From: Trypanosoma brucei | Taxonomy: Eukaryota | Assembly (NCBI GenBank): GCA_000002445.1 | Contig: CM000208.1 | Span: 2,624,001 to 2,688,000, forward strand | Length of the DNA stretch: 64,000 nucleotides | Reading direction: 5' to 3' | Part shown: positions 3,749-37,344 of the stretch, piece after piece | Position numbering within the stretch: position 1 is the stretch's first letter | Layout: every line of letters starts with the position of its first letter | Made by a program: the position numbers and the translations under genes | Notes under the pieces: generated by a model | What the model was told of the DNA's origin: nothing | Databases searched by the model: none | Seen by the model: the letters and a program-made list of their open reading frames with translations, nothing else

Positions 3749-4693
3749 TTACTTCGGCACTGGGATACGATGCTGTAGTGCAACTCCATGCCACCCCAGT
3801 TCTTCCTCAACGCATCGGTTGAGCTCCTCGTCCCTCGCAAGACGTCGGGCACTAGCGCGCATTGCAGCGCTGCCCTCGCAATCGCTTCGCTCGGAACGGT
3901 TAAGCCGCTGAAGTTCTTCACGTATGCGATGGACTGTCGCTTCCGTCAACTGCTCTACGCGCTCAGGTGTATCGAACACCTGGTTCCTTCCCGGTGTGGT
4001 ATCGCGGGAATCTGCATGTCCTTCCAGCCGACATGACATTGTGGACGAAGGTGACACGACACTAGCAACTCCTGCCTCACTACTTTCCCTAGACAAGGTA
4101 ACTGAAGTAGGAAGCCGGACCCACGCTCTGCGTGCCGAGCGAAACCACCCGAGCAGGTCGTCGAGCTGTGCCCAACCGATGGACTCTTCCAGCAGAGGGA
4201 GGCGCTGGTGGACTTCATATCTGTAAAGGTTCTGGCCGTCCCGCACGCGCTGGCGTTCGTATTGTGTAAGATTCACCCAAGCCTTACTTCTATCTTCTAA
4301 CCCCAACTGGCACATCTTTTCCCACAGTTTTGCGCTGATGGCGGATTCAGCACATCGATGAAGGGACGGGATTAGATAACTCCAATTGCATGTGTCATGG
4401 CAATGCCGCTGCAGACCTGCGCACGACCCGTTGGGGGGCCTGCTATGCAGAATCAATTTCCTATGATACAGCTGACCGGACTCTGGCATCGTTGCCTGAG
4501 AGGAGTGCCTCACACCATTTAGGACACCAAGAGCCCGTCCCGAATGCCGCCTCGCGTCGGGATTTTCATACAATAAATCACCGCGACCACTCCCGCCGTA
4601 TACTCGGCGTGAAGGAGTTAGGGTCAGGGAAACGGCATCGGGAAAAACTCCGCCGCCTCGGCGTATTAGTCCCGCTGAAGCCCCCATCTTCAT
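3749..4693 (-). CDS. Hypothetical protein, 314 aa
   Basis: ORF on the array strand. Arg-rich, no recognisable domain. Confidence 0.5.
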   Translation of the reverse strand: MKMGASAGLIRRGGGVFPDAVSLTLTPSRRVYGGSGRGDLLYENPDARRHSGRALGVLNGVRHSSQATMPESGQLYHRKLILHSRPPNGSCAGLQRHCHDTCNWSYLIPSLHRCAESAISAKLWEKMCQLGLEDRSKAWVNLTQYERQRVRDGQNLYRYEVHQRLPLLEESIGWAQLDDLLGWFRSARRAWVRLPTSVTLSRESSEAGVASVVSPSSTMSCRLEGHADSRDTTPGRNQVFDTPERVEQLTEATVHRIREELQRLNRSERSDCEGSAAMRASARRLARDEELNRCVEEELGWHGVALQHRIPVPK

Positions 4694-7856: not shown

Positions 7857-10094
7857 TTAATCAAATTCTTCAACATCTAAACCTACTAATGCTTCACCAC
7901 CCTCAGGTGCCACTGCCTCAGGTTGTGCTTCTGCAGGAACTTGCTGTGGCTCTTCAAGCTCTTCAACTGCTTCCACTGCTATGTCACCCTCAGGTGCCGC
8001 TGCCTCAGGTTGTGCTTCTGCAGGAACTTGCTGTGGCTCTTCAAGCTCTTCAACTGCTTCCACTGCTATGTCACCCTCAGGTGCCGCTGCCTCAGGTTGT
8101 GCTTCTGCAGGAACTTGCTGTGGTTCTTCAAGCTCTTCAACTGCTTCCACTGCTATGTCACCCTCAGGTGCCGCTGCCTCAGGTTGTGCTTCTGCAGGAA
8201 CTTGCTGTGGCTCTTCAAGCTCTTCAACTGCTTCCACTGCTATGTCACCCTCAGGTGCCGCTGCCTCAGGTTGTGCTTCTGCAGGAACTTGCTGTGGTTC
8301 TTCAAGCTCTTCAAGTGCTTCCACTGCTATGTCACCCTCAGGTGCCGCTGCCTCAGGTTGTGCTTCTGCAGGAACTTGCTGTGGCTCTTCAAGCTCTTCA
8401 AGTGCTTCCACTGCTATGTCACCCTCAGGTGCCGCTGCCTCAGGTTGTGCTTCTGCAGGAACTTGCTGTGGCTCTTCAAGCTCTTCAACTGCTTCCACTG
8501 CTATGTCACCCTCAGGTGCCGCTGCCTCAGGTTGTGCTTCTGCAGGAACTTGCTGTGGCTCTTCAAGCTCTTCAACTGCTTCCACTGCTATGTCACCCTC
8601 AGGTGCCGCTGCCCCAGGTTGTGCTTCTGCAGGAACTTGCTGTGGCTCTTCAAGCTCTTCAACTGCTTCCACTGCTATGTCACCCTCAGGTGCCGCTGCC
8701 TCAGGTTGTGCTTCTGCAGGAACTTGCTGTGGCTCTTCAAGCTCTTCAACTGCTTCCACTGCTATGTCACCCTCAGGTGCCGCTGCCTCAGGTTGTGCTT
8801 CTGCAGGAACTTGCTGTGGCTCTTCAAGCTCTTCAACTGCTTCCACTGCTATGTCACCCTCAGGTGCCGCTGCCTCAGGTTGTGCTTCTGCAGGAACTTG
8901 CTGTGGTTCTTCAAGCTCTTCAAGTGCTTCCACTGCTATGTCACCCTCAGGTGCCGCTGCCCCAGGTTGTGCTTCTGCAGGAACTTGCTGTGGCTCTTCA
9001 AGCTCTTCAACTGCTTCCACTGCTATGTCACCCTCAGGTGCCGCTGCCTCAGGTTGTGCTTCTGCAGGAACTTGCTGTGGCTCTTCAAGCTCTTCAACTG
9101 CTTCCACTGCTATGTCACCCTCAGGTGCCGCTGCCTCAGGTTGTGCTTCTGCAGGAACTTGCTGTGGCTCTTCAAGCTCTTCAACTGCTTCCACTGCTAT
9201 GTCACCCTCAGGTGCCGCTGCCTCAGGTTGTGCTTCTGCAGGAACTTGCTGTGGTTCTTCAAGCTCTTCAAGTGCTTCCACTGCTATGTCACCCTCAGGT
9301 GCCGCTGCCTCAGGTTGTGCTTCTGCAGGAACTTGCTGTGGCTCTTCAAGCTCTTCAAGTCCTTCCACTGCTATGTCACCCTCAGGTTGTGCCTCAGGTT
9401 GTGCTTCTGCAGGAACTTGCTGTGGCTCTTCAAGCTCTTCAACTGCTTCCACTGCTATGTCACCCTCAGGTGCCGCTGCCTCAGGTTGTGCTTCTGCAGG
9501 AACTTGCTGTGGCTCTTCAAGCTCTTCAACTGCTTCCACTGCTATGTCACCCTCAGGTGCCGCTGCCTCAGGTTGTGCTTCTGCAGGAACTTGCTGTGGT
9601 TCTTCAAGCTCTTCAAGTGCTTCCACTGCTATGTCACCCTCAGGTGCCGCTGCCTCAGGTTGTGCCTCAGGTTGTGCTTCTGCAGGAACTTGCTGTGGCT
9701 CTTCAAGCTCTTCAAGTGCTTCCACTGCTATGTCACCCTCAGGTGCCGCTGCCTCAGGTTGTGCTTCTGCAGGAACTTGCTGTGGCTCTTCAAGCTCTTC
9801 AAGTGCTTCCACTGCTATGTCACCCTCAGGTGCCGCTGCCTCAGGTTGTGCCTCAGGTTGTGCTTCTGCAGGAACTTGCTGTGGTTCTTCAAGCTCTTCA
9901 AGTGCTTCCACTGCTATGTCACCCTCAGGTTGTGCCTCAGGTTGTGCTTCTGCAGGAACTTGCTGTGGCTCTTCAAGCTCTTCAAGTGCTTCCACTGCTA
10001 TGTCACCCTCAGGTGCCGCTGCCTCAGGTTGTGCCTCAGGTTGTGCTTCTGCAGGAACTTGCTGTGGCTCTTCAAGCTCTTCAACTGCTTCCAC
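7857..10094 (-). CDS. C-terminal part of the giant repeat protein: about 25 tandem 28/29/33-aa units (EELEEPQQVPAEAQPEAAAPEGDIAVEAL). It is out of frame with the upstream part because of indels at about 10.10-10.22 kb.
   Basis: ORF with no unique N-terminus. It has the same repeat as the 3' end of ORF 10189..15138. The M at 10094 is internal to a repeat. Confidence 0.65.
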   Translation of the reverse strand: MEAVEELEEPQQVPAEAQPEAQPEAAAPEGDIAVEALEELEEPQQVPAEAQPEAQPEGDIAVEALEELEEPQQVPAEAQPEAQPEAAAPEGDIAVEALEELEEPQQVPAEAQPEAAAPEGDIAVEALEELEEPQQVPAEAQPEAQPEAAAPEGDIAVEALEELEEPQQVPAEAQPEAAAPEGDIAVEAVEELEEPQQVPAEAQPEAAAPEGDIAVEAVEELEEPQQVPAEAQPEAQPEGDIAVEGLEELEEPQQVPAEAQPEAAAPEGDIAVEALEELEEPQQVPAEAQPEAAAPEGDIAVEAVEELEEPQQVPAEAQPEAAAPEGDIAVEAVEELEEPQQVPAEAQPEAAAPEGDIAVEAVEELEEPQQVPAEAQPGAAAPEGDIAVEALEELEEPQQVPAEAQPEAAAPEGDIAVEAVEELEEPQQVPAEAQPEAAAPEGDIAVEAVEELEEPQQVPAEAQPEAAAPEGDIAVEAVEELEEPQQVPAEAQPGAAAPEGDIAVEAVEELEEPQQVPAEAQPEAAAPEGDIAVEAVEELEEPQQVPAEAQPEAAAPEGDIAVEALEELEEPQQVPAEAQPEAAAPEGDIAVEALEELEEPQQVPAEAQPEAAAPEGDIAVEAVEELEEPQQVPAEAQPEAAAPEGDIAVEAVEELEEPQQVPAEAQPEAAAPEGDIAVEAVEELEEPQQVPAEAQPEAAAPEGDIAVEAVEELEEPQQVPAEAQPEAVAPEGGEALVGLDVEEFD

Positions 10095-11615
10095 TGCTAT
10101 GTCACCCTCAGGTTGTGCCTCAGGTTGTGCAGGTGTGCTTCTGCAGGAACTTGCTGTGGTTCTTCAAGCTCTTCAAGTGCTTCCACTGCTATGTCACCCT
10201 CAGGTTCGCTGCCTCAGGTTGTGCTTCTGCAGGAACTTGCTGTGGTTCTTCAAGCTCTTCAAGTGCTTCCACTGCTATGTCACCCTCAGGTGCCGCTGCC
10301 TCAGGTTGTGCTTCTGCAGGAACTTGCTGTGGCTCTTCAAGCTCTTCAAGTGCTTCCACTGCTATGTCACCCTCAGGTGCCGCTGCCTCAGGTTGTGCCT
10401 CAGGTTGTGCTTCTGCAGGAACTTGCTGTGGCTCTTCAAGCTCTTCAAGTGCTTCCACTGCTATGTCACCCTCAGGTGCCGCTGCCTCAGGTTGTGCCTC
10501 AGGTTGTGCTTCTGCAGGAACTTGCTGTGGTTCTTCAAGCTCTTCAAGTGCTTCCACTGCTATGTCACCCTCAGGTGCCGCTGCCTCAGGTTGTGCCTCA
10601 GGTTGTGCTTCTGCAGGAACTTGCTGTGGCTCTTCAAGCTCTTCAACTGCTTCCACTGCTATGTCACCCTCAGGTTGTGCCTCAGGTTGTGCTTCTGCAG
10701 GAACTTGCTGTGGCTCTTCAAGCTCTTCAAGTGCTTCCACTGCTATGTCACCCTCAGGTGCCGCTGCCTCAGGTTGTGCCTCAGGTTGTGCTTCTGCAGG
10801 AACTTGCTGTGGTTCTTCAAGCTCTTCAAGTGCTTCCACTGCTATGTCACCCTCAGGTGCCGCTGCCTCAGGTTGTGCCTCAGGTTGTGCTTCTGCAGGA
10901 ACTTGCTGTGGCTCTTCAAGCTCTTCAACTGCTTCCACTGCTATGTCACCCTCAGGTTGTGCCTCAGGTTGTGCTTCTGCAGGAACTTGCTGTGGCTCTT
11001 CAAGCTCTTCAAGTGCTTCCACTGCTATGTCACCCTCAGGTGCCGCTGCCTCAGGTTGTGCCTCAGGTTGTGCTTCTGCAGGAACTTGCTGTGGCTCTTC
11101 AAGCTCTTCAAGTGCTTCCACTGCTATGTCACCCTCAGGTGCCGCTGCCTCAGGTTGTGCCTCAGGTTGTGCTTCTGCAGGAACTTGCTGTGGCTCTTCA
11201 AGCTCTTCAACTGCTTCCACTGCTATGTCACCCTCAGGTTGTGCCTCAGGTTGTGCTTCTGCAGGAACTTGCTGTGGCTCTTCAAGCTCTTCAAGTGCTT
11301 CCACTGCTATGTCACCCTCAGGTGCCGCTGCCTCAGGTTGTGCCTCAGGTTGTGCTTCTGCAGGAACTTGCTGTGGCTCTTCAAGCTCTTCAACTGCTTC
11401 CACTGCTATGTCACCCTCAGGTGCCGCTGCCTCAGGTTGTGCCTCAGGTTGTGCTTCTGCAGGAACTTGCTGTGGCTCTTCAAGCTCTTCAAGTGCTTCC
11501 ACTGCTATGTCACCCTCAGGTTGTGCCTCAGGTTGTGCTTCTGCAGGAACTTGCTGTGGCTCTTCAAGCTCTTCAACTGCTTCCACTGCTATGTCACCCT
11601 CAGGTGCCGCTGCCT
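7860..11615. repeat. Tandem array of 84/87/99-nt coding repeats (28/29/33 aa), about 40 copies
   Basis: Direct reading. The unit ...atgtcaccctcaggtgccgctgcctcaggttgtgc[ctcaggttgtgc]ttctgcaggaacttgctgtggctcttcaagctcttcaa(c/g)tgcttccactgct recurs with 87-nt spacing (for example 7921 to 8008). Variants carry a 12-nt insertion (99 nt) or a 3-nt deletion (84 nt). Confidence 0.95.
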
Positions 11616-14600
11616 CAGGCTGCGCAATGTCAAGCTCCTTTTGATCTTCAGGCTCAAGTGTCTGAATCACCTCAAGCTGCGCAATGTCAAGCTCCTTTTG
11701 ATCTTCAGGCTCGAGTGTCTGAATCACCTCAGGCTGCGCAATGTCAAGCTCCTTTTGATCTTCAGGCTCAAGTGTCTGAATCACCTCAGGCTGCGCAATG
11801 TCAAGCTCCTTTTGATCTTCAGGCTCGAGTGTCTGAATGACCTCAGGCTGCGCAATGTCAAGCTCCTTTTGATCCTCAGGTTCAAGTGTCTGAATCACCT
11901 CAGGCTGCGCAATGTCAAGCTCCTTTTGATCTTCAGGCTCGGGTGTCTGAATCACCTCAGGCTGCGCAATGTCAAGCTCCTTTTGATCTTCAGGCTCGAG
12001 TGTCTGAATCACCTCAGGCTGCGCAATGTCAAGCTCCTTTTGATCTTCAGGCTCAAGTGTCTGAATCACCTCAGGCTGCGCAATGTCAAGCTCCTTTTGA
12101 TCTTCAGGCTCGGGTGTCTGAATCACCTCAGGCTGCGCAATGTCAAGCTCCTTTTGATCTTCAGGCTCGAGTGTCTGAATCACCTCAGGCTGCGCAATGT
12201 CAAGCTCCTTTTGATCTTCAGGCTCAAGTGTCTGAATCACCTCAGGCTGCGCAATTTCAAGCTCCTTTTGATCTTCAGGCTCAAGTGTCTGAATCACCTC
12301 AGGCTGCGCAATGTCAAGCTCCTTTTGATCTTCAGGCTCGAGTGTCTGAATCACCTCAGGCTGCGCAATGTCAAGCTCCTTTTGATCTTCAGGTTCAAGT
12401 GTCTGAATCACCTCAGGCTGCGCAATGTCAAGCTCCTTTTGATCTTCAGGCTCGAGTGTCTGAATCACCTCAGGCTGCGCAATGTCAAGCTCCTTTTGAT
12501 CTTCCGGCTCAAGTGTCTGAATCACCTCAGGCTGCGCAATGTCAAGCTCCTTTTGATCTTCAGGCTCAAGTGTCTGAATCACCTCAGGCTGCGCAATGTC
12601 AAGCTCCTTTTGATCTTCAGGCTCAAGTGTCTGAATCACCTCAGGCTGCGCAATGTCAAGCTCCTTTTGATCTTCAGGCTCAAGTGTCTGAATCACCTCA
12701 GGCTGCGCAATGTCAAGCTCCTTTTGATCTTCAGGCTCAAGTGTCTGAATCACCTCAGGCTGCGCAATGTCAAGCTCCTTTTGATCTTCAGGCTCAAGTG
12801 TCTGAATCACCTCAAGCTGCGCAATGTCAAGCTCCTTTTGATCTTCAGGCTCAAGTGTCTGAATCACCTCAGGCTGCGCAATGTCAAGCTCCTTTTGATC
12901 TTCAGGCTCGGGTGTCTGAATCACCTCAGGCTGCGCAATGTCAAGCTCCTTTTGATCTTCAGGCTCAAGTGTCTGAATCACCTCAGGCTGCGCAATGTCA
13001 AGCTCCTTTTGATCTTCAGGCTCGAGTGTCTGAATGACCTCAGGCTGCGCAATGTCAAGCTCCTTTTGATCCTCAGGTTCAAGTGTCTGAATCACCTCAG
13101 GCTGCGCAATGTCAAGCTCCTTTTGATCTTCAGGCTCGGGTGTCTGAATCACCTCAGGCTGCGCAATGTCAAGCTCCTTTTGATCTTCAGGCTCAAGTGT
13201 CTGAATCACCTCAGGCTGCGCAATGTCAAGCTCCTTTTGATCTTCAGGCTCAAGTGTCTGAATCACCTCAGGCTGCGCAATTTCAAGCTCCTTTTGATCT
13301 TCAGGCTCAAGTGTCTGAATCACCTCAGGCTGCGCAATGTCAAGCTCCTTTTGATCTTCAGGCTCAAGTGTCTGAATCACCTCAGGCTGCGCAATGTCAA
13401 GCTCCTTTTGATCTTCAGGCTCAAGTGTCTGAATCACCTCAGGCTGCGCAATGTCAAGCTCCTTTTGATCTTCAGGCTCGAGTGTCTGAATCACCTCAGG
13501 CTGCGCAATGTCAAGCTCCTTTTGATCTTCAGGCTCAAGTGTCTGAATCACCTCAGGCTGCGCAATGTCAAGCTCCTTTTGATCTTCAGGCTCAAGTGTC
13601 TGAATCACCTCAGGCTGCGCAATGTCAAGCTCCTTTTGATCTTCAGGCTCGAGTGTCTGAATCACCTCAGGCTGCGCAATGTCAAGCTCCTTTTGATCTT
13701 CAGGTTCAAGTGTCTGAATCACCTCAGGCTGCGCAATGTCAAGCTCCTTTTGATCTTCAGGTTCAAGCTTTTTGAATGCAATTTTCTCTGTATGTTCACG
13801 CTCCTTTTTTTTGTTTTCTTGTGTGATTTCTTCTTGATGATCGTTTGTTTTTAATTTTTCTTTTTGTGGTTTATTTTCTTTTGGGAGTTGAACTTCTTGG
13901 GGATCTTGGTTTGTGGTCGAGTCCTGTTTTTTTAGTTGTGGTTGGTGCCACTGCTGCTGCTCGGCTGTTTCATGAGCGTGAGCAAAACTTTTTTTCGGGT
14001 CAAGTATTTTGGTGTTTTGAGGCAGTGATTGCCTTTTTTGATTTGCTTCTTTACATGTTTGTTTTTTACTAATTGTTTCAGTTAGTGGCGTTTGGGCACT
14101 GCTGATGCGTGCCTCCTTAGCTTTGAGGTATATCGTCCTTCTCTCCATTTCTTGAAGGATGTCACCTCTGTTGATTTGTTCATTTTTTTCCATTCGTTGG
14201 CGTAATTTGCCTTCATCTTCAACCACGCCAACTACCTTCTTTAGTTCATGAAACGCCTCTTGCAGTAGAAGGTATGACCTTCGCAGGTCTACCATGATTT
14301 CCATGTAACTGAAGTAATGCTTTGTGTCAAGTGCTATTCTTTCTTGTATATTTTTCTGATACTGCCTCTCAACAAGCCGTTGGCGCTGTTTGGCGTGCAT
14401 ATCCCTCAGAACTTGTCTGTGAGTTTCACTGCGCTGTTTGTCTTTAATATCCAACGTTTCGCGCGTTTTGGCACTTATGTGTTCATATTTTTCCTTTGAT
14501 ATTCGGTCAATAGTCTCCTGCACTTTTGGCAAGAGAGTATCGAGCATGCGGTCAATGCGGCGTAGGGTGCGGTTGCGTTCGTTTTCTTCCTTTTTCCGAA

Positions 14601-15138
14601 TCCTCGCAGAAACCTCCTTGTCTAACTCATGCTGTGTTTTGTCATGGTCGTATTTTGTTAGCACCTGCTGTAGGCGTGAAGACCGCCATAGTCTAATATT
14701 ACTGTCAATTTGCGCGATTTCCTCCTCAATTGAAGGACTGTCATTAACAATGTGTCGTTGACTAAAAAAAACAGAGTTTAACACAGGTTGCCCGGCATCA
14801 GGAAGGGACTTGCTCACCTCTGTATAAAACGTCATATCGTGCATTGCATCACTAACCAACAACCCCTTAGCCACATCATCTGCTGCTGCAGCGCCGGCGT
14901 ACACGGACGGTCCTTTCGGACGCCGGAAAGAGGAGAGGGGGAGATAATCCGGCTTTGAGGGTTTGGCAGGGATCTTCAATTGCTTGCTATCGACCTCTGT
15001 GCTGACTTGCTCCAGTAGTGGTTCTGCAACCGTCGACGTTGTTGTAGGTTGCTCCTTGGCCTGCTCCTGAGGCGATCTCCCCTCGCCTGGGGAATTATTA
15101 TACATTGCTACTGCTGTTGCTATTTTCCCCCTTTCCAC
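10189..15138 (-). CDS. Giant repetitive protein, N-terminal 1649 aa. A unique charged, coiled-coil-like domain of about 450 aa is followed by about 38 copies of a 19-aa repeat (LEPEDQKELDIAQPEVIQT), then in-frame 28/33-aa repeats.
   Basis: Long ORF with a unique N-terminal region (15138 to about 13780) and a seamless in-frame junction between the two repeat types at about 11.62-11.64 kb. Together with 7857..10094 it would encode about 2400 aa. Confidence 0.8.
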   Translation of the reverse strand: MERGKIATAVAMYNNSPGEGRSPQEQAKEQPTTTSTVAEPLLEQVSTEVDSKQLKIPAKPSKPDYLPLSSFRRPKGPSVYAGAAAADDVAKGLLVSDAMHDMTFYTEVSKSLPDAGQPVLNSVFFSQRHIVNDSPSIEEEIAQIDSNIRLWRSSRLQQVLTKYDHDKTQHELDKEVSARIRKKEENERNRTLRRIDRMLDTLLPKVQETIDRISKEKYEHISAKTRETLDIKDKQRSETHRQVLRDMHAKQRQRLVERQYQKNIQERIALDTKHYFSYMEIMVDLRRSYLLLQEAFHELKKVVGVVEDEGKLRQRMEKNEQINRGDILQEMERRTIYLKAKEARISSAQTPLTETISKKQTCKEANQKRQSLPQNTKILDPKKSFAHAHETAEQQQWHQPQLKKQDSTTNQDPQEVQLPKENKPQKEKLKTNDHQEEITQENKKKEREHTEKIAFKKLEPEDQKELDIAQPEVIQTLEPEDQKELDIAQPEVIQTLEPEDQKELDIAQPEVIQTLEPEDQKELDIAQPEVIQTLEPEDQKELDIAQPEVIQTLEPEDQKELDIAQPEVIQTLEPEDQKELDIAQPEVIQTLEPEDQKELDIAQPEVIQTLEPEDQKELEIAQPEVIQTLEPEDQKELDIAQPEVIQTLEPEDQKELDIAQPEVIQTPEPEDQKELDIAQPEVIQTLEPEDQKELDIAQPEVIQTLEPEDQKELDIAQPEVIQTLEPEDQKELDIAQPEVIQTPEPEDQKELDIAQPEVIQTLEPEDQKELDIAQLEVIQTLEPEDQKELDIAQPEVIQTLEPEDQKELDIAQPEVIQTLEPEDQKELDIAQPEVIQTLEPEDQKELDIAQPEVIQTLEPEDQKELDIAQPEVIQTLEPEDQKELDIAQPEVIQTLEPEDQKELDIAQPEVIQTLEPEDQKELDIAQPEVIQTLEPEDQKELDIAQPEVIQTLEPEDQKELEIAQPEVIQTLEPEDQKELDIAQPEVIQTLEPEDQKELDIAQPEVIQTPEPEDQKELDIAQPEVIQTLEPEDQKELDIAQPEVIQTLEPEDQKELDIAQPEVIQTPEPEDQKELDIAQPEVIQTLEPEDQKELDIAQPEVIQTLEPEDQKELDIAQPEVIQTLEPEDQKELDIAQPEVIQTLEPEDQKELDIAQLEVIQTLEPEDQKELDIAQPEAAAPEGDIAVEAVEELEEPQQVPAEAQPEAQPEGDIAVEALEELEEPQQVPAEAQPEAQPEAAAPEGDIAVEAVEELEEPQQVPAEAQPEAQPEAAAPEGDIAVEALEELEEPQQVPAEAQPEAQPEGDIAVEAVEELEEPQQVPAEAQPEAQPEAAAPEGDIAVEALEELEEPQQVPAEAQPEAQPEAAAPEGDIAVEALEELEEPQQVPAEAQPEAQPEGDIAVEAVEELEEPQQVPAEAQPEAQPEAAAPEGDIAVEALEELEEPQQVPAEAQPEAQPEAAAPEGDIAVEALEELEEPQQVPAEAQPEAQPEGDIAVEAVEELEEPQQVPAEAQPEAQPEAAAPEGDIAVEALEELEEPQQVPAEAQPEAQPEAAAPEGDIAVEALEELEEPQQVPAEAQPEAQPEAAAPEGDIAVEALEELEEPQQVPAEAQPEAAAPEGDIAVEALEELEEPQQVPAEAQPEAANLRVT
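11615..13775. repeat. Tandem array of a 57-nt coding repeat (19 aa), about 38 copies, highly homogenised
   Basis: Direct reading. ttgatcttcaggctcaagtgtctgaatcacctcaggctgcgcaatgtcaagctcctt repeats with exact 57-nt period; only a few point variants (caa/cgg/cga, gtc/ttc). Confidence 0.95.
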
Positions 15139-15451
15139 CCCCTTCTCGACTCCTTCTTTCCTATTTTCTACGCCTTGTACTGCGGGGGCTGATGTATATG
15201 TCTACTTACACTTGTTACTGAGGAGGTAGTAGGTGAGAGAGCGACCAATTTAGCAGCAGCACAAGCCGGGGTGCGTGGTTGTGGGCGCGTGGGTCACAAA
15301 GTGTAGGGAAATTATACACGTGTGCACACGAACGTGTACACATATATGCGGCCACCGTGTGAATGGAACTCGGTGTGTGTGTCTTCGCACGCAGGTGGGC
15401 AGCTTTTATTGTTAACGAATCTCCACCTCGTACTGGATATCAACACTGTCA

Positions 15452-18030: not shown

Positions 18031-19737
18031 CTAAATCACCTCTGCTGCATGTTTCTTGTACCTTTCGACGATCCACTTTGTGCGCTGCTTCAGATCAACA
18101 ATGGGGCTGGGATAGGCCGATCCACCAACGATGCTGCCCCCAAGCGGTAGCTCCGTCTTTTCCTTTTTTATTCCGTTGCTTTCCTTCACAGTTCCTTGCA
18201 CTGTACCTAATGTGCCCTGGTCCGCTGGTCGCCCCTCCTTGCAAAACACATCCCACTTGTGTATCGTCCTCACAGACACATTCCGGAGCTCTGGCACCCA
18301 TTGTTTGATAAACACGGCCTGCGGATCGTGCTGAGCGGACTGGCGGAACGGGTTAAAGAAACGAAAATACGGCTGTGCATCAGCACCCTGGCCCGATGAC
18401 CAGAGCCAACCGCCGCTGTTATTAGCCACATCGTAGTCCACAGCGACGGTAGCGTACCACCGCTCACCTTCCCTCCAATCCACAAAGAGAACCTTCACAA
18501 GAAAATTGGCAATTAACATCCGGCAGCGGTTGTGACACCAACCCGTTTTCGTCAAACAGCGTACCGCAGCGTCCACAAGCGGGAATCCTGTGGCTCCGGA
18601 CTTGAACGCGGTAAATTCTGCGTCATTCCACTCCCACTGGAAATTAGAGTACTTCTCCAGAAACGGCTCATTGGCAAGCGTCGCACGACATTGTCGCTCA
18701 CCCTGAGGGGCAACGTCCATCTTTAGTTGCCCCAATGCCAGACGCGGGTTGTGATAGAGTAACATCGAATAGAACTCGCGCCAAATGAGTTGCCTAGTAA
18801 ATGCATGCTCCTTCCCCAAGTGTAGCAATGCAACCTGCATGGCCTCACGGATAGAGATGGTACCAAATTTTAAATGCGGACTTAAATGTGTCGTTTTGTC
18901 CCCCGGAATGTCGTCTCGGATGGCAGAATAATTTTTTGCCGATGCAACGCTTGCCAACCGTAGCAACCCTTCACTTCTTCCGCCCCTATCCACCAGTTCG
19001 GGAAAGGTTTGGGGAAGGGCTGCTAAATCAACGTAGTCAACCAGTGAAGAGAACTCATCCGCGGCCATGGCGCTCCTCCTTGCTTGATCTACAGTAGCTT
19101 TGACATCTTCCTTTACATGGGAACCGGTAAAAATATCACCGATGGTGGTGGCCTTAGGATTTGGCGCTTGTATGTCGCTGAAGTGCTCCTGTAGAACGGC
19201 ACGATAAAAAGGACTGAAGACACGGTACGGTTTTCCATTCTTGTTAGTTACTACATCCGGGGGGAGTAGTGTATAATCCATGTTGCTGGTGACACACCGT
19301 ACACCCCGTTTCACACACCATTCTTCGAGCTGAAGATCACGTTTACGTGCAAAAGGCGTAATATCGCGGTTAAAACCAAGCTGTTTGATGTCGTAACCAG
19401 AGGAACGAACCACCTCGAGACAGTCACAATCACTACCACGAAGACAAACTAGACGTCCACCAAGCTGAACAGTATCCAAATGTTTCAGTGATTGGCATAG
19501 GAACTCAAAGCAAGCCTTACCGAAATAAGGGTTCTTATCGGGGTCACACTGCCTTGGATTGAAAAAGAACAGGGGAATGACGGGTAGCGACTGTTTGCCA
19601 GCCCGTTCTATCAGCAGCAGCAGACCGGTGTTGTCAGTCACACGGAAATCTCGCCTAAAAATGAACACCGCTGCTGGGAGCGGTTGACTCGGGGTTCGCT
19701 GCCTCTTGACGGCGACAACACGACTCGGTACGTACAT
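18031..19737 (-). CDS. Deoxyribodipyrimidine (CPD) photolyase / cryptochrome-DASH family flavoprotein, 568 aa
   Basis: Motifs read directly: LSPHLKFG, WREFY, TGFPLVDAAVRCLTKTGWCHNRCRMLIANFLVK, DYDVANNSGGWLWSSG, YFRFFNPFRQ. These are the canonical FAD-binding-domain signatures of the photolyase family. Confidence 0.9.
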   Translation of the reverse strand: MYVPSRVVAVKRQRTPSQPLPAAVFIFRRDFRVTDNTGLLLLIERAGKQSLPVIPLFFFNPRQCDPDKNPYFGKACFEFLCQSLKHLDTVQLGGRLVCLRGSDCDCLEVVRSSGYDIKQLGFNRDITPFARKRDLQLEEWCVKRGVRCVTSNMDYTLLPPDVVTNKNGKPYRVFSPFYRAVLQEHFSDIQAPNPKATTIGDIFTGSHVKEDVKATVDQARRSAMAADEFSSLVDYVDLAALPQTFPELVDRGGRSEGLLRLASVASAKNYSAIRDDIPGDKTTHLSPHLKFGTISIREAMQVALLHLGKEHAFTRQLIWREFYSMLLYHNPRLALGQLKMDVAPQGERQCRATLANEPFLEKYSNFQWEWNDAEFTAFKSGATGFPLVDAAVRCLTKTGWCHNRCRMLIANFLVKVLFVDWREGERWYATVAVDYDVANNSGGWLWSSGQGADAQPYFRFFNPFRQSAQHDPQAVFIKQWVPELRNVSVRTIHKWDVFCKEGRPADQGTLGTVQGTVKESNGIKKEKTELPLGGSIVGGSAYPSPIVDLKQRTKWIVERYKKHAAEVI

Positions 19738-24329: not shown

Positions 24330-27300
24330 CTACAGCCCCACACTGGCTTCTTGCGACGCATCGTACACGAGCGACAGTAAAGTCATATGGTCTATGCTCT
24401 CTATTCCACACATGAGTAACTCCACGGCGTACTCCTCAAGGAAGCTACTGAGAAGTTCTCTTTGAGTGCACCCTTCGTGCTTCCAACCAACGGTTGTGTA
24501 AAACTCCTGGAAGGAGTGTACAATGCATTCACGAATCATGCCGTCTCTCAAAAACGGCAAAGACAGCGTGGCTGCACACTCACGCACACCACCACAGCAG
24601 CCATGATCATGTTTTTCAGTGGTGTGACTGCTATCAGCGCTTTCAGCGAAATGACGACTCCGCGCAAGGGCATACTGGAGCCGAACCCCCGTTAGCAGTG
24701 GATGGTTTGGTGGTAGAATCTGTCGCAAGTCTTCAAGCAGTTCCTCGCAAAGCAGCAGAAGCATATGACTGTCGTGGGTTGTCAACTGGGAGCGAAGAGA
24801 TAGCGCCAAACACTCCAGCCTTGTCTGCAGGCGGATATAATGTGTTGTGGGTAGCGCACAGGCAAACGAGTCTAAGTCCATCAGGCGTCGCAAAGCCGTT
24901 TGCGCTAGTCGATCTTCTCCTGCGCCATTATCATCGTCATCACTCCCTTCCTCCATCCCGTCAACCTCAATCCCCTGTACCTCCTCACTCGATCCAACTG
25001 TACCGGCTTCAACCTCAACCTCGCAAGCACTCGCGCCAACGCCCCCAAACGTGCTAGTACTTTCAAATTCTTCACATGCTTTGTCCACTGCGTTTGCATA
25101 TCCTTGCAGGATACGTCTCGAGAGCGACTCGTAAGTGTCTGAATCTGCTCGTGAACAGTCGCTAGCATGCTCGTAGGACCGCTGACCCTTGGGAAGCGAA
25201 AGGTCCACCAATACGCAAGGATACGTGTGAACCCCCCTTGTGGGTTGCCGACCCGCACTACCTTGATACTTATCACAATTTTTTTGTGCATCCTCGGGGT
25301 CATATATTAGCTGCCTGCACTCAGGACATATAACACCCTCCAAAAGCGCGGTGCTTGACTTGCAGAAAGAGCAGCAGCAACAGAAACCGTTTTGCTCGTC
25401 CTTTAGAGTTTTCGGAATTAGTACTGAGGAAAGATACGATACAGTAATTTCCTCACCGGGCTCAATGTCGCGGAGGGCAATAACACAGACATCACCCTTC
25501 CCCTCTCCGAAGGAGCTGCTGCCTTGTGATTCTTCGCTGCACAGGGGCAAAATTATGGCATTAGGCTTACAGCTGTGGTTGATCAACGAAACCAACGGAA
25601 GGAGGGCGCGGCATGGGGTAAGCACTTCGGCCTTCGGAGTGGCTCTGAAATCTTGTGGTGCTTCAAGCGGAACAGAACACCGTCGCCAGCAGCACATGAG
25701 GTCGGCTAGATCACGTGCAATGGCTGCCTCATAGTCCACATTTTCCCTTCCCGCGCCTTGAGTTGGGTGCATCCCACTTTCACCCGAGAAAGGCATCATT
25801 GCAAGTAAGTGTAACGCCGAATGCATATCAGGTGCCTCAACAGGGTCACCGAGGAGCTTCCCAACTCGCAAAGCTTTGACAATGGAGGAGGTTGCTAACT
25901 CATCCTTATGGACGAAGCCCCCGCGAAGAAACAGTTCTAAGGCCCCGTTCACCACGGCAGCATTTTCACCGTCCGGGGCCTCCACAATGTCAGTGACCCG
26001 CTCCTGCTTCCGCTTTTGTGGTGACACTTGGCCAACAAGCAGCAGCGACCTGTCCTTCACAACTACTGCGCCCTCCATGATATGGTTTGTAGCAATAAGC
26101 CCAACACCGTGTTTGATGCGCCACCTGTTGCTGCTCGGTTCAACAGACGGATGCAGCAAGGGTGTACAAGCACTGTGCGGGGTATCACCTTCCCCATCCG
26201 ACGATAGCCCCACACCAAACATTGCCAAACGAATTCGGCGAATCAAATCGTCACACGGCGCGTTGAATTGTGCAACCGCTATTTGCGCAGCCGTAAGGGC
26301 ATCGATAAGGCAGCGCATGGAGGTTGAGAGACCCTCGCGGCTTATCCACAAAAGCTTGTGGCAACCATTCACACCCCCGCTCACCACAGTTTTGCCATCA
26401 GTTGCGTTCTGGTAGCTCCCCGGTACTCCCTTCACAAAAGACAAGTGCGAAAACAGTCGGGCCTGTTGCAGTTGGATGTCAGCCTTGCCAATATAAAGCC
26501 TTCGCAGCTCATCGTACCCTGCCGGAATGCGGCGAGAAAAGAGGTCGACGGTGGAATTAAGTTCATTCAAAAAAGCAGTGACTGTTTCCGCGTCGTGCAA
26601 CTGGCGTTTGCACTCTGAACTTTGTGGTGCTGTGGTGGACAAGAAAAGGTCTTCAAAAAGCAACCATCCATCATCATTGTCAGAGCACATGGACGATGTA
26701 GCCTCCGCCTTTGGTGGGGTCATAGCGCTCACGGTTTCGGGCATCCACCACCACTCTGTCATAGGCAGCATGTCGTAGAGGCCGCCACTGCACAAATCAG
26801 GTTTGTAATCTGAAGTAAGCGTTACGTGAGCCTCGCACCAACGCCACGCGCGGGAAGCGGCGTAGACGCGGCGCCACCGACAGTGTAGAGTGCTCAGCGC
26901 ACTGCACGTCTTGTCGGTGTTCGCTGCTCGCATCAGAGTTTCAATGATATCCACCTCTTCCTTTTCTATTCTTACTCTAGTAGCCGCATGAATTTCGTGC
27001 TGCGTGAAAGACTCAAGAATACTAATCACTGTCCGCATGAGTAGCTCGCCCGCATGCGTGAAGAGCTGGAAGGCCTGCTCCTCATCCCTACCGCTTCCGC
27101 TCTCGACGCCCAGCGTGCCCCATTCTCCTTTACGGTGCGCCTGCTCTGCTATTTCGTGCAGTTTTCGGCCAACGATGGTGAGGGATTCCGCGTCGTGCCC
27201 GCACTCTTTCAGACGTTTCCTCAGCGATTCAAGGTCTCGTGACTTGTCTTCCACCCATGACATCCCAGGTGGGTTGGCAACTACCCTGACATCAAACATT

Positions 27301-27500
27301 ACAAGAAGCCCCACGGACGGCGGGGGCATGTGGAAGAAGATAAAAGAGGGGGAGAAAGTAGAGACTTTGCATGAGATCCGAATACATTTTACCCTTCGCA
27401 GGCAGCGAAGAGCAATAATAGTGACAACAATAACAACAACAACCGTTGATATTATATATATATATATATAAAGTGCTCTGTTTAAAATCCTTTCCACCAC
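24330..27500 (-). CDS. SET-domain protein (lysine methyltransferase family), about 1000 aa. The true start is probably MPPPSVG or MSWVED near 27.26-27.33 kb; the first about 55 codons of the track ORF translate an (AT)n/(GTT)n microsatellite.
   Basis: SET signatures LINHSCKPNAIILP (about 25555-25600) and GEEITVSYL (about 25440-25465), followed by a Cys cluster (FCCCCSFC...CPEC). Confidence 0.8.
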   Translation of the reverse strand: MVERILNRALYIYIYIISTVVVVIVVTIIALRCLRRVKCIRISCKVSTFSPSFIFFHMPPPSVGLLVMFDVRVVANPPGMSWVEDKSRDLESLRKRLKECGHDAESLTIVGRKLHEIAEQAHRKGEWGTLGVESGSGRDEEQAFQLFTHAGELLMRTVISILESFTQHEIHAATRVRIEKEEVDIIETLMRAANTDKTCSALSTLHCRWRRVYAASRAWRWCEAHVTLTSDYKPDLCSGGLYDMLPMTEWWWMPETVSAMTPPKAEATSSMCSDNDDGWLLFEDLFLSTTAPQSSECKRQLHDAETVTAFLNELNSTVDLFSRRIPAGYDELRRLYIGKADIQLQQARLFSHLSFVKGVPGSYQNATDGKTVVSGGVNGCHKLLWISREGLSTSMRCLIDALTAAQIAVAQFNAPCDDLIRRIRLAMFGVGLSSDGEGDTPHSACTPLLHPSVEPSSNRWRIKHGVGLIATNHIMEGAVVVKDRSLLLVGQVSPQKRKQERVTDIVEAPDGENAAVVNGALELFLRGGFVHKDELATSSIVKALRVGKLLGDPVEAPDMHSALHLLAMMPFSGESGMHPTQGAGRENVDYEAAIARDLADLMCCWRRCSVPLEAPQDFRATPKAEVLTPCRALLPLVSLINHSCKPNAIILPLCSEESQGSSSFGEGKGDVCVIALRDIEPGEEITVSYLSSVLIPKTLKDEQNGFCCCCSFCKSSTALLEGVICPECRQLIYDPEDAQKNCDKYQGSAGRQPTRGVHTYPCVLVDLSLPKGQRSYEHASDCSRADSDTYESLSRRILQGYANAVDKACEEFESTSTFGGVGASACEVEVEAGTVGSSEEVQGIEVDGMEEGSDDDDNGAGEDRLAQTALRRLMDLDSFACALPTTHYIRLQTRLECLALSLRSQLTTHDSHMLLLLCEELLEDLRQILPPNHPLLTGVRLQYALARSRHFAESADSSHTTEKHDHGCCGGVRECAATLSLPFLRDGMIRECIVHSFQEFYTTVGWKHEGCTQRELLSSFLEEYAVELLMCGIESIDHMTLLSLVYDASQEASVGL
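27425..27472. repeat. Compound microsatellite (AAC)n followed by (TA)9
   Basis: Direct reading: acaacaataacaacaacaaccgttgatattatatatatatatatata. Confidence 0.9.
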
Positions 27501-36327: not shown

Positions 36328-37344
36328 TTAGTCCTTGCCTTGCCGTTGCCTTTCATGCGAGCCCCCGCGCTCCACCTCCTCAACTTTCTGCACTTCTGGT
36401 ACCCAGTGCCGTGTCGTCCGTTCAATCATATCCCTCAGAGTTGTCTTGCTGCTCCTACACTTACGGCACGCTCCCAGCATCTCAACCAGCATCACTGAAT
36501 CCGCAAGCCCAACAAAGCGAATGTCACCACCGTCAGCTTGAAGCTGTGGTCTAATCGTGGTAGAGATAAGTTCTTTCAACACCACCACTACCTCAGAATC
36601 GCCATCCTGTGGGATGGTATCTGGATGCGGGTGAGGAGCATCTGCGTCGATATGAGCCCGACCACTGTACAGGTGATCCGTGAGAAGGGCGCTAACATGA
36701 AGCTTTAGCTCACTCCAATGTGTGCTGCGCACCAGATCACGCAGAGCGGCCTCATCCACTGAGTCTAGTGCAACCCCGCCCTGCGAACCTAGATTATCCT
36801 CGGTGTTTTCGCCGCCACCGTCCACACTTTCGTTAGGGTCATTGCGACCAGAAAGTGTTTTTACCTGCTCGCAGTTTTCTTCCATGGCGTCCATAACCTT
36901 CCGCTGGAGCGCCGCTGACCGTTCGGCCGTTTCTTCCGGTGTCGCGGTGGGATTACCGCCGAGTCTAACAGCGTACTGTCGCACTGCAGCCGCCGTGTCG
37001 TCATCGTCCACACGGCGCACCGTCACAAAATCCCTCCCAATGGTAACTTCCTCCACCATAGGGAGATTGTGGAGAATGTGCTTGGCAAGGGGCGATTGAT
37101 GGCAGTTGTCAAAATCGAAACGAAGTGTATTTCCACTTTGTGGGAGAAATTCGACGCCTTTGACAAAAAACTTATAGCACGCTTCATTTGGCGTTTCGCG
37201 GAAGGAAACGAAGAAGCTCCTCTTGGAATCCACGTGTGCTTTGGGGGTTAGACATCCTCGAGTCAGCTCCTGCGCTATACGCGGGCAGCGGGCAACGTAG
37301 AAAGGACCAGCGCGGTAAAACAACCAGGAACCGACCCGCATCAA
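36328..37344 (-). CDS. NFU1: NFU1-type iron-sulfur cluster scaffold protein (Nfu_N plus NifU C-terminal domain), probably mitochondrial
   Basis: C-terminal NifU domain with the CxxC motif (...GDIRFVGLADSVMLVEMLGACRKCRSS...). N-terminal Nfu_N-like segment (FVKGVEFLPQSGNTLRFDFDN). Basic amphipathic N-terminus. Confidence 0.8.
   Translation of the reverse strand: MMRVGSWLFYRAGPFYVARCPRIAQELTRGCLTPKAHVDSKRSFFVSFRETPNEACYKFFVKGVEFLPQSGNTLRFDFDNCHQSPLAKHILHNLPMVEEVTIGRDFVTVRRVDDDDTAAAVRQYAVRLGGNPTATPEETAERSAALQRKVMDAMEENCEQVKTLSGRNDPNESVDGGGENTEDNLGSQGGVALDSVDEAALRDLVRSTHWSELKLHVSALLTDHLYSGRAHIDADAPHPHPDTIPQDGDSEVVVVLKELISTTIRPQLQADGGDIRFVGLADSVMLVEMLGACRKCRSSKTTLRDMIERTTRHWVPEVQKVEEVERGGSHERQRQGKD

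What the first reader, a model, noticed from the sequence alone, without database searches (positions are those of the whole stretch)
7857..15138. Roughly 7.3 kb gene for a giant protein with two distinct, in-frame tandem repeat arrays
Behind a unique, charged, coiled-coil-like N-terminal domain of about 450 aa, the gene carries about 38 perfect-period copies of a 57-nt/19-aa unit (LEPEDQKELDIAQPEVIQT). It then switches in frame to about 40 copies of a 28/29/33-aa unit (EELEEPQQVPAEAQPEA[AAP]EGDIAVEAL). Together these would give about 2400 aa that are over 80% repeat, acidic and Pro/Gln/Glu-rich. Such proteins in trypanosomatids are typically cytoskeleton-associated or immunodominant repeat antigens. 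I cannot match this unit to the repeat families I remember (MARP 38-aa, GM6 68-aa, FAZ1 14-aa), so it may be an undescribed or lineage-specific repeat protein. The near-identity of copies implies ongoing concerted evolution, and copy number is probably under-represented in an assembly.
Basis: seen in the sequence. Interest (0 to 1): 0.8.

Follow-up and report, generated by a model that had tools for sequence, protein, structure and literature searches.

The report
Trypanosome flagellar repeat antigen gene (probably I17)
This is a real, very large Trypanosoma brucei-group gene with a conserved anchoring head and about 1,900 residues of acidic tandem repeats; it belongs to an already annotated "flagellar antigen" family and is most likely the I17 antigen described in the 1990s, so it is well resolved here but not new.

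Summary
The two tandem arrays are real and sit on the minus strand. Array A has 38 units of 57 nt (13767..11602). Array B has 41 units of 84/87/99 nt (11601..7902). Both lie behind a unique 446-aa N-terminus that starts at the ATG at 15105.

The gene is not one open frame in this window. Two adjacent aberrant units (86 and 92 nt, 10284..10107) shift the frame. The ORF as written stops at 10189 (1,638 aa). Another 745 codons of repeat plus the C-terminus stay open in a different frame.

The window is Trypanosoma brucei-group chromosome 10. Gene counting from three literature-anchored neighbours (mL78, ATG7, MSH2) places the gene at Tb927.10.11080.

The N-terminal domain is conserved across the genus Trypanosoma, in proteins named "putative flagellar antigen" or "paraflagellar rod protein". 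Each species carries its own acidic repeat behind it. No Leishmania relative was found.

Four features fit TbI17, a repeat antigen of more than 180 kDa that immunogold labelling placed between the paraflagellar rod and the axoneme:
- its position on chromosome 10,
- its size,
- its repeat nature,
- its species distribution.

I could not compare the sequence with the I17 cDNA.

Verdict: known family and probably a known antigen. The full two-array architecture is absent from protein databases.

The parts
15106..15250 (-). Putative 5' processing region. A polypyrimidine tract (ctctctcacctactacctcctcag) ends in an AG at about 15218 and is followed by a 5'UTR of about 110 nt.
   Evidence: Read directly from the sequence. 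The role as trans-splice acceptor is inferred from general trypanosomatid mRNA processing and was not tested.
13768..15105 (-). Unique N-terminal region of 446 aa starting at ATG 15105. It is basic (pI 9.2).
   Evidence: It is 98% identical to T. b. equiperdum RHW69643.1, named 'paraflagellar rod protein'.
14146..14961 (-). Genus-conserved domain (aa 49-320). An extended, highly conserved segment (aa 49-125: KPDY..HDMTFY..LPDAGxPVLNS..FSQRH) is followed by long helices 126-204 and 212-286; a third helix (298-336) starts inside the domain and runs into the linker.
   Evidence: About 60 invariant columns, nearly all inside this domain, across 12-13 Trypanosoma sequences. In the AlphaFold2 model the helices have pLDDT about 85-94 and aa 1-125 have pLDDT below 50. 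No Pfam, PDB or fold match.
13768..14145 (-). Lys/Gln/Glu-rich, poorly conserved linker (aa 321-446).
11602..13767 (-). Array A: 37 units of 57 nt (19 aa, LEPEDQKELDIAQPEVIQT) plus one hybrid A/B unit that joins at the shared CCTGAGG (AQPE) motif.
   Evidence: The single-sequence AlphaFold2 model gives a regular two-strand-per-unit beta-solenoid with pLDDT 80-90, which may be an artefact.
7902..11601 (-). Array B: 41 units of 84/87/99 nt (28/29/33 aa, GDIAVEA[LV]EELEEPQQVPAEAQPEA(QPEA)(AAPE)). It contains no Lys or Arg.
   Evidence: Predicted disordered, with pLDDT about 40-45.
10471..11598 (-). Higher-order block inside array B: the pattern 84-99-99 nt repeated 4 times (a 282-nt super-unit).
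   Evidence: Unit lengths.
10107..10284 (-). Two adjacent aberrant B units (86 nt and 92 nt) that break the reading frame. The resulting stop is at 10191..10189.
   Evidence: These are the only units whose length is not a multiple of 3. Neither variant string occurs in the T. b. equiperdum IVM-t1 locus.
7902..9380 (-). Homogeneous run of 17 units of 87 nt at the 3' end of array B.
7857..7901 (-). Unique C-terminal tail GGEALVGLDVEEFD plus a TAA stop. It is in the frame of ORF 10094..7857.
   Evidence: The same tail follows the array in T. b. equiperdum IVM-t1.

Best explanation
This is the T. brucei-group member of a Trypanosoma-genus-specific 'flagellar antigen' gene family. By position it is Tb927.10.11080. 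It is most likely the gene for TbI17, the high-molecular-weight repetitive antigen reported at the junction between the paraflagellar rod (PFR) and the axoneme.

**Proposed mechanism**
- The conserved, basic N-terminal module docks the protein into the flagellar cytoskeleton. This module is an extended, strongly conserved segment followed by a long helical hairpin or coiled coil.
- The roughly 1,900-residue polyanionic tail projects from it as a spacer or bristle. The tail is array A, possibly an ordered rod, followed by array B, which is disordered and rich in Pro, Glu, Ala and Gln.
- The tail presents dozens of identical epitopes. That would explain strong early antibody responses.
- The tail is free to change. 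Unequal crossing-over and gene conversion keep the copies within a species nearly identical, while the unit itself is replaced between species.

**What is shown and what is inferred**
- Shown: the gene anatomy, the family membership, the synteny and the species-specific repeats.
- Inferred: the identity with I17, the docking and spacer roles, and the antigenicity in T. brucei.

**The frame break**
I judge the break at 10107..10284 to be slightly more likely (about 60%) an unpolished consensus error inside the repeat than a real truncating allele.
For: **Organism and locus**
- All large ORFs lie on one strand, as in a trypanosomatid polycistron.
- Flanking DNA is 99.8-99.9% identical to T. equiperdum OVI contigs and 99.1% to T. 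b. equiperdum IVM-t1 chromosome 10.
- The neighbour at 3749..4693 is mitoribosomal mL78 (6hiv_BL, E 1e-210), which is Tb927.10.11050.
- ATG7 at 43481..45811 is Tb927.10.11180.
- MSH2, Tb927.10.11020, lies two genes beyond the window.
- Counting called genes from either side gives Tb927.10.11080.
- PSSA-2 (Tb10.26.0790, 5 x YGQPPPPQ) is in the window at 51378..52811. The gene therefore lies in the same 'Tb10.26' stretch as TbI17 (Tb10.26.0960).

**Family**
- The N-terminus hits only Trypanosoma proteins, with E from 1e-206 down to 1e-79. They are named 'paraflagellar rod protein' or 'putative flagellar antigen'.
- The alignment shows a conserved domain at aa 49-320, followed by different acidic repeats in T. 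cruzi (PAEDVQELVA), T. congolense (PEAHEAAEEGVE), T. conorhini and T. theileri.

**TbI17 as described in PMC2813431**
- A high-molecular-weight repeat protein, cloned from a cDNA expression library with a serum fraction affinity-purified on T. brucei proteins of more than 180 kDa.
- Located on chromosome 10.
- Reciprocal-BLAST orthologues in T. congolense and T. cruzi, and none in three Leishmania species.
- The gene here is 184 kDa as written and 258 kDa if repaired.
- It is the only repeat gene within many gene models of the predicted position.

**Other support**
- Antigenicity of the family: the T. cruzi repeat peptide was selected by IgG from Chagas patients in a genome phage display screen.
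- Array B has no Lys or Arg. This fits the absence of TbI17 from the tryptic PFR proteome, which the authors said might reflect physical properties refractory to MS identification.
- Two other assemblies have the same order: N-terminus, array A, array B, then the C-terminal tail.
Against: - No direct sequence comparison with the I17 cDNA or with the Tb10.26.0960 protein was possible.
- A strict one-to-one conversion of old to new gene numbers, anchored on PSSA-2, would place Tb10.26.0960 three gene models away, at mL78. That is biologically impossible for I17, but it shows the numbering argument is only good to about plus or minus 3 models.
- No protein in the databases contains repeat A or repeat B. 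If an I17 cDNA translation had been deposited and indexed, it should have been found.
- No T. b. brucei TREU927 protein appeared among the N-terminal hits.
- The word-indexed search is known to give false negatives.
- The docking and spacer roles are inferred. The N-terminal model has pTM 0.26 and no fold match.
Confidence: 0.75

Rival explanations
1. The frame break is real. This allele encodes a truncated 1,638-aa protein (N-terminus, array A and 14 B units, ending ...AEAQPEAANLRVT*). The downstream 2.2 kb is a recently disabled remnant.
For: - The window is otherwise clean. It differs from T. equiperdum OVI by only 5 small indels in about 23 kb, all in homopolymer or TA runs outside real coding sequence.
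- The second aberrant unit is a complex change, not a simple homopolymer slip.
- The two units lie at the border between two sub-blocks of array B, which could be a recombination scar.
Against: - 745 codons downstream remain open. All 25 downstream units are multiples of 3 and the C-terminus is intact and conserved.
- Repeats are where short-read polishing fails. The IVM-t1 long-read assembly is full of such indels in the same array.
- The aberrant strings are absent from IVM-t1.
Confidence: 0.38
2. It is a previously undescribed repeat protein unrelated to I17. I17 would then be a different gene on chromosome 10.
For: - Neither repeat unit is found in any protein of the 1.84-billion representative library or in the word-indexed search.
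- Neither repeat peptide occurs in the paper library.
- 'Tb927.10.11080' appears in no main text in the paper library.
- The old gene number is offset by 3 models.
Against: - The orthologues already carry 'flagellar antigen' or 'paraflagellar rod protein' names.
- No other repeat gene lies nearby.
- Size, chromosome region and species distribution all match the published I17 profile.
- The model at the strict numerical position is mitoribosomal mL78, which has a Leishmania homologue in the PDB.
Confidence: 0.17
3. It is an assembly chimera or mis-join. Arrays A and B belong to two different loci, or the arrays are collapsed or expanded artefacts.
For: - The A-to-B junction is not independently confirmed. 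IVM-t1 has a 100-N gap exactly there.
- The OVI contigs stop inside the arrays.
- Copy numbers differ between assemblies.
Against: - In IVM-t1 the same chromosome 10 locus holds the N-terminus, array A, a gap, array B and the same C-terminal tail, between the same neighbours.
- An OVI contig runs from the upstream gene through the N-terminus into two A units. Another starts in the last B unit and runs into the downstream gene.
- The junction unit is in frame and joins at a shared CCTGAGG motif.
- No other copy of either array exists in the window.
Confidence: 0.05
4. The real gene is one of the long plus-strand ORFs across the arrays (for example 7981..13854, 1,957 aa).
For: These ORFs are longer than the broken minus-strand ORF.
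Against: - All neighbouring genes are on the minus strand.
- The conserved N-terminal domain runs directly into array A in the minus frame.
- The plus-strand ORFs are confined to the repeats. They simply reflect repeat units that lack stop codons.
- Variants in array A are mostly synonymous only in the minus coding frame: 5 synonymous to 3 non-synonymous, against 1:7 to 4:4 in the other frames.
Confidence: 0.01

Closest known systems
TbI17 antigen (Tb10.26.0960; Mueller et al. 1992, Imboden et al. 1995, as summarised in PMC2813431)
   Same: - A high-molecular-weight tandem-repeat protein of T. brucei.
- Located in the 'Tb10.26' region of chromosome 10.
- Orthologues in T. congolense and T. cruzi, and none in Leishmania.
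- The family carries 'flagellar antigen' and 'paraflagellar rod protein' annotation.
   Different: - Identity was not verified at the sequence level.
- The old gene number is offset by about 3 models under strict counting.
- I found no published or database sequence that shows the two-array architecture (38 x 19 aa followed by 41 x 28-33 aa).
'Putative flagellar antigen' orthologues in T. cruzi, T. vivax, T. congolense, T. theileri, T. rangeli and T. conorhini (for example PWU87793.1, CCC52028.1, TCIL3000_10_9300)
   Same: - The same conserved N-terminal domain, 41-47% identical, with about 60 invariant residues.
- The same architecture: head, linker, then acidic Pro/Glu/Ala/Val-rich tandem repeats.
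- The T. cruzi repeat is recognised by patient IgG in phage display.
   Different: - The repeat units are unrelated in sequence and much shorter (10-12 aa) in the other species.
- Their arrays are far smaller, at least as annotated; several of these gene models end at contig ends or frameshifts.
- Only the T. brucei-group gene has two distinct long-unit arrays totalling about 1,900 aa.
Other T. brucei cytoskeletal repeat antigens (MARP 38-aa, GM6 68-aa, FAZ1 14-aa, Tb5.20 and TbI2 11-aa 'meme2' motif)
   Same: - They are large, repeat-dominated, non-variant cytoskeletal or flagellar proteins.
- They are immunodominant and have been used or proposed as diagnostic antigens.
   Different: - The unit lengths and sequences differ.
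- No PFR domain (PF05149) or any other Pfam family is detected.
- TbI2 and Tb5.20 have Leishmania orthologues, and this family does not.

Membership tests
Trypanosoma 'flagellar antigen' orthologue group | Conserved N-terminal domain (KPDY...HDMTFY...LPDxGxPVLNSxxFSQRH... plus long helices) | tested here: met
   phmmer E from 1e-206 to 1e-79 against 11 Trypanosoma proteins. About 60 invariant columns, nearly all within aa 49-320.
Trypanosoma 'flagellar antigen' orthologue group | Acidic tandem repeats C-terminal to the conserved domain | tested here: met
   Arrays A and B in this window. Species-specific repeats are seen in P0002, P0010, P0012 and P0015.
Trypanosoma 'flagellar antigen' orthologue group | Conserved genomic position (synteny) | tested here: met
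   The neighbours are the same in T. b. equiperdum IVM-t1 chromosome 10 and in the T. equiperdum OVI contigs. The T. congolense member is also on chromosome 10, judging by its locus tag. Synteny in T. cruzi was not examined.
TbI17 antigen | Sequence identity with the cloned I17 cDNA repeat or the Tb10.26.0960 protein | not testable with these tools
   The I17 papers are not held. No database entry named I17 was retrievable, and no protein with these repeats exists in the searched libraries.
TbI17 antigen | Genomic address Tb10.26.0960 on chromosome 10 | tested here: inconclusive
   The window contains Tb10.26.0790 (PSSA-2). Strict counting puts 0960 at mL78, three models from this gene. This gene is the only repeat gene in the neighbourhood.
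TbI17 antigen | High-molecular-weight (>180 kDa) repeat protein | tested here: met
   184 kDa as written and 258 kDa if the frame is repaired; 80% of the protein is repeat.
TbI17 antigen | Orthologues in T. congolense and T. cruzi, none in Leishmania | tested here: met
   One search returned only Trypanosoma hits, which matches Table 1 of PMC2813431. Caveat: the search tool has limited sensitivity.
TbI17 antigen | [quoted passage not shown] | not testable with these tools
   This needs experiments. The only indirect support is that the T. cruzi orthologue's repeat was selected by patient IgG.
PFR-domain proteins (PFR1, PFR2, PFR5, PAR1, Tb5.20) | Pfam PF05149 paraflagellar rod domain | tested here: not met
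   No Pfam family at E <= 0.01 for the N-terminus, and none above the cut-off for the repeats.
MARP / GM6 / FAZ1 / TbI2 repeat antigens | Their characteristic repeat units (38, 68, 14 or 11 aa) | tested here: not met
   The units here are 19 aa and 28/29/33 aa. The exhaustive phmmer search found only unrelated, compositionally similar proteins, best E 2.5e-14 to a leucine-rich-repeat protein. The comparison unit lengths are recalled, not retrieved.
Beta-solenoid repeat proteins | One coil per repeat unit, with a regular hydrophobic core | tested here: inconclusive
   The single-sequence AlphaFold2 model of array A shows two strands per 19-aa unit with pLDDT 80-90. Foldseek against the PDB gives no significant match; the best is E 0.48 to generic solenoids. 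AlphaFold2 is known to over-predict solenoids for perfect repeats (my own knowledge).

The most novel reading that the evidence does not exclude
The T. brucei-group protein may be more than a disordered antigen. It could be a two-part molecular spacer.
- Array A would fold into a beta-solenoid rod of about 18 nm: 38 coils, one per 19-aa unit, assuming about 4.8 Å per coil.
- Array B would be a polyanionic brush of about 1,200 residues with no Lys or Arg.
- Both would be anchored by the conserved head at the PFR-axoneme connectors.
- Array length would then set or tune the spacing or mechanics of that junction, and it would differ between strains.

The full architecture has not been described, because reference assemblies collapse or break it.
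Probability: 0.12. Interest if true: 0.55.

Novelty: already known. Interest (0 to 1): 0.25.

Why it matters
- If this is I17, the window supplies something the protein databases lack: a near-complete gene model for a diagnostic-candidate antigen. The model has a conserved anchor, 38 x 19-aa units and 41 x 28-33-aa units.
- That is useful for designing recombinant antigens and for interpreting proteomics. Array B has no tryptic cleavage sites, and array A yields a single 19-aa tryptic peptide.
- It is also useful for flagellar cell biology, since I17 is one of the few proteins reported at the PFR-axoneme junction.
- The family is a clear example of a conserved docking domain fused to a repeat tail that is replaced in each species and homogenised within each species.
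- None of this changes the current understanding of trypanosome biology.

Tried and rejected
- **Repeat units against protein databases.** The word-indexed search found nothing. The exhaustive phmmer search of 1.84 billion representatives gave only weak hits to compositionally similar proteins. No homologue of the repeats is annotated anywhere.
- **Concatenated downstream neighbours as one query.** I wanted to see whether they have Leishmania orthologues or TREU927 entries. The search returned nothing, although exact copies exist in the collection. It was wasted, and it shows that negatives from that tool are unreliable.
- **PDB sequence searches.** The N-terminus and both immediate neighbours gave no hit.
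- **Fold searches.** Foldseek against the PDB with both AlphaFold2 models gave nothing significant.
- **Pfam.** No family for any part of the protein.
- **Literature.** The repeat peptides are not in the library. 'I17' appears with trypanosome context only in the 2010 PFR review. The Imboden 1995 paper is not held.
- **Mapping through HSP83 (Tb10.26.1080).** Abandoned, because the downstream genes are MSH2 and others rather than HSP83. I replaced it with the mL78, ATG7, MSH2 and PSSA-2 anchors.
- **Exact-match look-ups to identify the source strain.** Three of five window proteins tested are identical to T. equiperdum OVI. No record matches all of them. The strain remains unknown.
- **Synonymous versus non-synonymous counts among repeat variants.** There are too few variant sites to be more than weakly supportive.

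Full report

Largely yes. Tandem Repeats Finder reports two abutting arrays. One has a 57-nt period (11613..13767, 37.8 copies, 97% matches, no indels, score 4093). The other has an 87/99-nt period (7898..11619, 41.3 copies, score 5639). The only other sizeable array in the 64 kb is a short one at 51.4 kb.

The coding strand is the minus strand. Translation from 15138 downwards gives the unique N-terminus, then LEPEDQKELDIAQPEVIQT repeated, then the EELEEPQQVPAEAQPEA...EGDIAVEA units.

Unit-by-unit parsing gives the following:
- Array A has 37 full units plus one hybrid unit, LEPEDQKELDIAQPE|AAAP. In the hybrid, A switches to B at a shared CCTGAGG (AQPE) motif. There are 10 nucleotide variants and 4 protein variants.
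- Array B has 41 units: 20 of 87 nt, 12 of 99 nt, 6 of 84 nt, 2 aberrant ones, and the terminal unit.
- Array B has internal structure. A higher-order block (84-99-99) x 4 lies at 11598..10471. A mixed zone follows. Then come 17 homogeneous 87-nt units at 9380..7902.

**2.

The gene is not one open frame in this sequence.
- Units 15 and 16 of array B are 86 nt (10284..10199; GCGGCACCT has become GCGAACCT) and 92 nt (10198..10107; GCACACCTGCACAACCTGAGG). Together they give a net shift of +1.
- The ORF from ATG 15105 therefore ends at 10189. It is 1,638 aa, 184 kDa, pI 4.05.
- The last 25 B units and the tail GGEALVGLDVEEFD* are open in another frame (10094..7857, 745 aa).
- A minimal repair gives about 2,352 aa, 258 kDa and 80% repeat.
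- Coordinate 15138 is only an upstream GTG. Orthologue alignment puts the start at ATG 15105.
- A polypyrimidine tract and an AG lie about 110 nt upstream.
- The long plus-strand ORFs (up to 1,957 aa) are by-products of repeat units that lack stop codons.

**3. Is the frame break an error or a real allele?**

Points in favour of an error:
- All 38 other complete B units are multiples of three.
- 745 codons stay open downstream, and the C-terminus is intact. The same tail is present in another strain.
- The IVM-t1 long-read assembly is riddled with indels in exactly this array.

Points in favour of a real allele:
- Outside the repeats the window is very clean. It differs from OVI by 5 small indels in about 23 kb, all in homopolymer or TA runs outside true coding sequence.
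- The second lesion is complex.

I put it at about 60:40 in favour of an unpolished consensus error. Only spanning accurate reads can decide.

**4. Where the window comes from.**

- All large ORFs are on one strand with short spacers.
- The N-terminal 446 aa is 98% identical to T. brucei equiperdum RHW69643.1.
- Flanking DNA is 99.8-99.9% identical to two T. equiperdum OVI contigs and 99.1% identical to T. b. equiperdum IVM-t1 chromosome 10.
- Three of five window proteins tested are identical to OVI proteins. No single record matches them all.

This is a T. brucei-group (Trypanozoon) genome of unidentified strain.

**5. Gene address.**

Three literature-anchored neighbours fix the position:
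- The ORF at 3749..4693 is mitoribosomal mL78 (PDB 6hiv_BL, E 1e-210). That is Tb927.10.11050.
- The ORF at 43481..45811 has ATG7_N and ThiF domains. ATG7 is Tb927.10.11180.
- A 951-aa MutS-family gene lies two genes beyond the low end of the window. From its position I take it to be MSH2, which is Tb927.10.11020.

Counting the called genes gives Tb927.10.11080 from both sides: three steps from mL78 and ten steps from ATG7. The number of genes between MSH2 and ATG7 exactly fills the 15 available identifiers. This is an inference from counting, not a database look-up. No paper in the library mentions that identifier in its main text.

**6. What family it belongs to.**

- The N-terminus has no Pfam, PDB or fold match.
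- It has clear homologues in T. congolense, T. vivax, T. melophagium, T. theileri, T. cruzi, T. c. marinkellei, T. conorhini and T. rangeli. It has none outside the genus.
- Several of these are named 'putative flagellar antigen'. The T. b. equiperdum copy is named 'paraflagellar rod protein'.
- The alignment shows a strongly conserved domain at aa 49-320 that holds nearly all of the ~60 invariant residues, a variable linker, and then a different acidic tandem repeat in each species. Examples are PAEDVQELVA in T. cruzi and PEAHEAAEEGVE in T. congolense.
- The family architecture is therefore a conserved head plus a fast-evolving, internally homogenised acidic tail. The T. brucei-group tail is by far the largest, and the only one seen here with two arrays of long units.

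**7. The link to TbI17.**

The 2010 PFR review (PMC2813431) describes I17 as follows:
[quoted passage not shown] - It is assigned to Tb10.26.0960 on chromosome 10.
- It has reciprocal-BLAST orthologues in T. congolense and T. cruzi and none in three Leishmania species.

The window contains Tb10.26.0790, which is PSSA-2. Its 5 x YGQPPPPQ repeat matches the repeat at 51409..51666. The gene therefore lies in the right stretch.

Size, repeat nature, species distribution and the names of the orthologues all fit, and no other repeat gene is nearby.

Three points weaken the link:
- Strict one-to-one renumbering puts 0960 at mL78, three models away. mL78 cannot be I17, but this shows that the numbering is only approximate.
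- I could not retrieve any I17 sequence.
- No deposited protein contains these repeats.

I estimate about 75-80% that this gene is I17.

**8. Independent support for the locus structure.**

- In IVM-t1 the same locus holds the N-terminus, at least 10.8 A units, a 100-N gap, about 47 error-laden B units and the same C-terminal tail.
- In OVI, one contig ends two A units into the array. The next contig starts in the last B unit.
- This argues against a two-locus chimera. The A/B junction itself is not independently confirmed.
- It also shows why the full protein is missing from annotation. The IVM-t1 model stops at 340 aa.

**9. How it probably works (inference).**

*The head.*
- It is basic (pI about 9).
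- Its most conserved stretch (aa 49-125) is predicted unstructured on its own (pLDDT below 50).
- Three long helices follow, with pLDDT about 85-94.
- This pattern is typical of a segment that folds on a partner, followed by a coiled-coil stalk. I read it as the docking module.

*The tail.*
- It is polyanionic (pI about 4).
- Array B is predicted disordered. It is rich in Pro, Glu, Ala and Gln and has no Lys or Arg.
- Single-sequence AlphaFold2 gives array A a regular two-strand-per-unit beta-solenoid with pLDDT 80-90. There is no significant PDB match. AlphaFold2 is known to over-predict such folds for perfect repeats, so this is only a lead.

*Antigenicity and detection.*
- The tail presents dozens of identical epitopes, which fits immunodominance.
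- The T. cruzi orthologue's repeat was selected by IgG from Chagas patients in genome phage display, although the synthetic peptide was ELISA-negative.
- The lack of tryptic sites in array B fits the failure to detect TbI17 in the tryptic PFR proteome.

*Evolution.*
- Copies are near-identical within a species (97% matches).
- There is higher-order sub-block structure, and the units differ between species.

**10. Verdict.**

The feature is real, and the window assembles it almost completely. It is a member of an annotated Trypanosoma flagellar antigen family and probably the long-known I17 antigen. The residual novelty is descriptive: the full two-array gene model, the frame break, and a speculative ordered fold for array A.

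Noticed in passing
window 51378..52811 (-), repeat at 51409..51666: This ORF encodes PSSA-2, the procyclic surface glycoprotein (Tb10.26.0790). Its YGQPPPPQ repeats appear here as a 36/72-nt tandem array and a weak Pfam Extensin_2 hit.
   Followed up: partly
window 3749..4693 (-): This ORF is mitoribosomal protein mL78 (PDB 6hiv_BL, E 1e-210), which is Tb927.10.11050. I used it as a positional anchor.
   Followed up: yes
window 7889..13854 (+): Three very long antisense ORFs (1,251, 1,305 and 1,957 aa) run through the arrays. They are stop-free artefacts of the repeat units. Gene callers could pick the wrong strand here.
   Followed up: partly
window 11602..13767 (-), array A: Single-sequence AlphaFold2 predicts a regular beta-solenoid, with two strands per 19-aa unit and pLDDT 80-90. 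Array B is predicted disordered. Foldseek gives no significant match. This may be an AlphaFold2 artefact on perfect repeats.
   Followed up: partly
L001 11957..12056 (T. b. equiperdum IVM-t1, CM010681.1): A 100-N scaffold gap sits exactly between array A and array B. The B array in that assembly is full of 1-7-nt length errors, and the gene is annotated only as a 340-aa fragment.
   Followed up: yes
L002 end / L003 start (T. equiperdum OVI contigs CZPT02001306.1 and CZPT02001868.1): The short-read assembly breaks on both sides of the repeats. One contig ends 2 units into array A (window 13652). The next starts in the last B unit (window 7966).
   Followed up: yes
T. cruzi records PWU87792 and PWU87793.1 (P0015): Two consecutively numbered protein records (so probably adjacent gene models) both carry the PAEDVQELVA repeat, for PWU87792 and for P0015. 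The orthologous T. cruzi gene is probably also split by assembly or annotation.
   Followed up: no
window 28044..32714 (-): A 1,556-aa protein carries four consecutive domains of unknown function (DUF7495 to DUF7498). Other neighbours include a DNA photolyase (18031..19737), a SET-domain protein (24330..27500), NifU (36328..37344), ATG7 (43481..45811), RtcB (46097..47557) and a BRE1/TMF-like coiled-coil protein (55711..58449).
   Followed up: no
tool behaviour: the search for homologous proteins returned no hits for a concatenated query of four neighbouring proteins. At least one of them (the 786-aa protein) exists exactly in the underlying collection. Its negative results should not be read as absence.
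   Followed up: partly
window 54001..58000: AT skew is markedly negative (-0.13 to -0.31) and GC is lower (0.44-0.47) over the 912-aa coiled-coil gene and its upstream neighbour. I did not examine this further.
   Followed up: no
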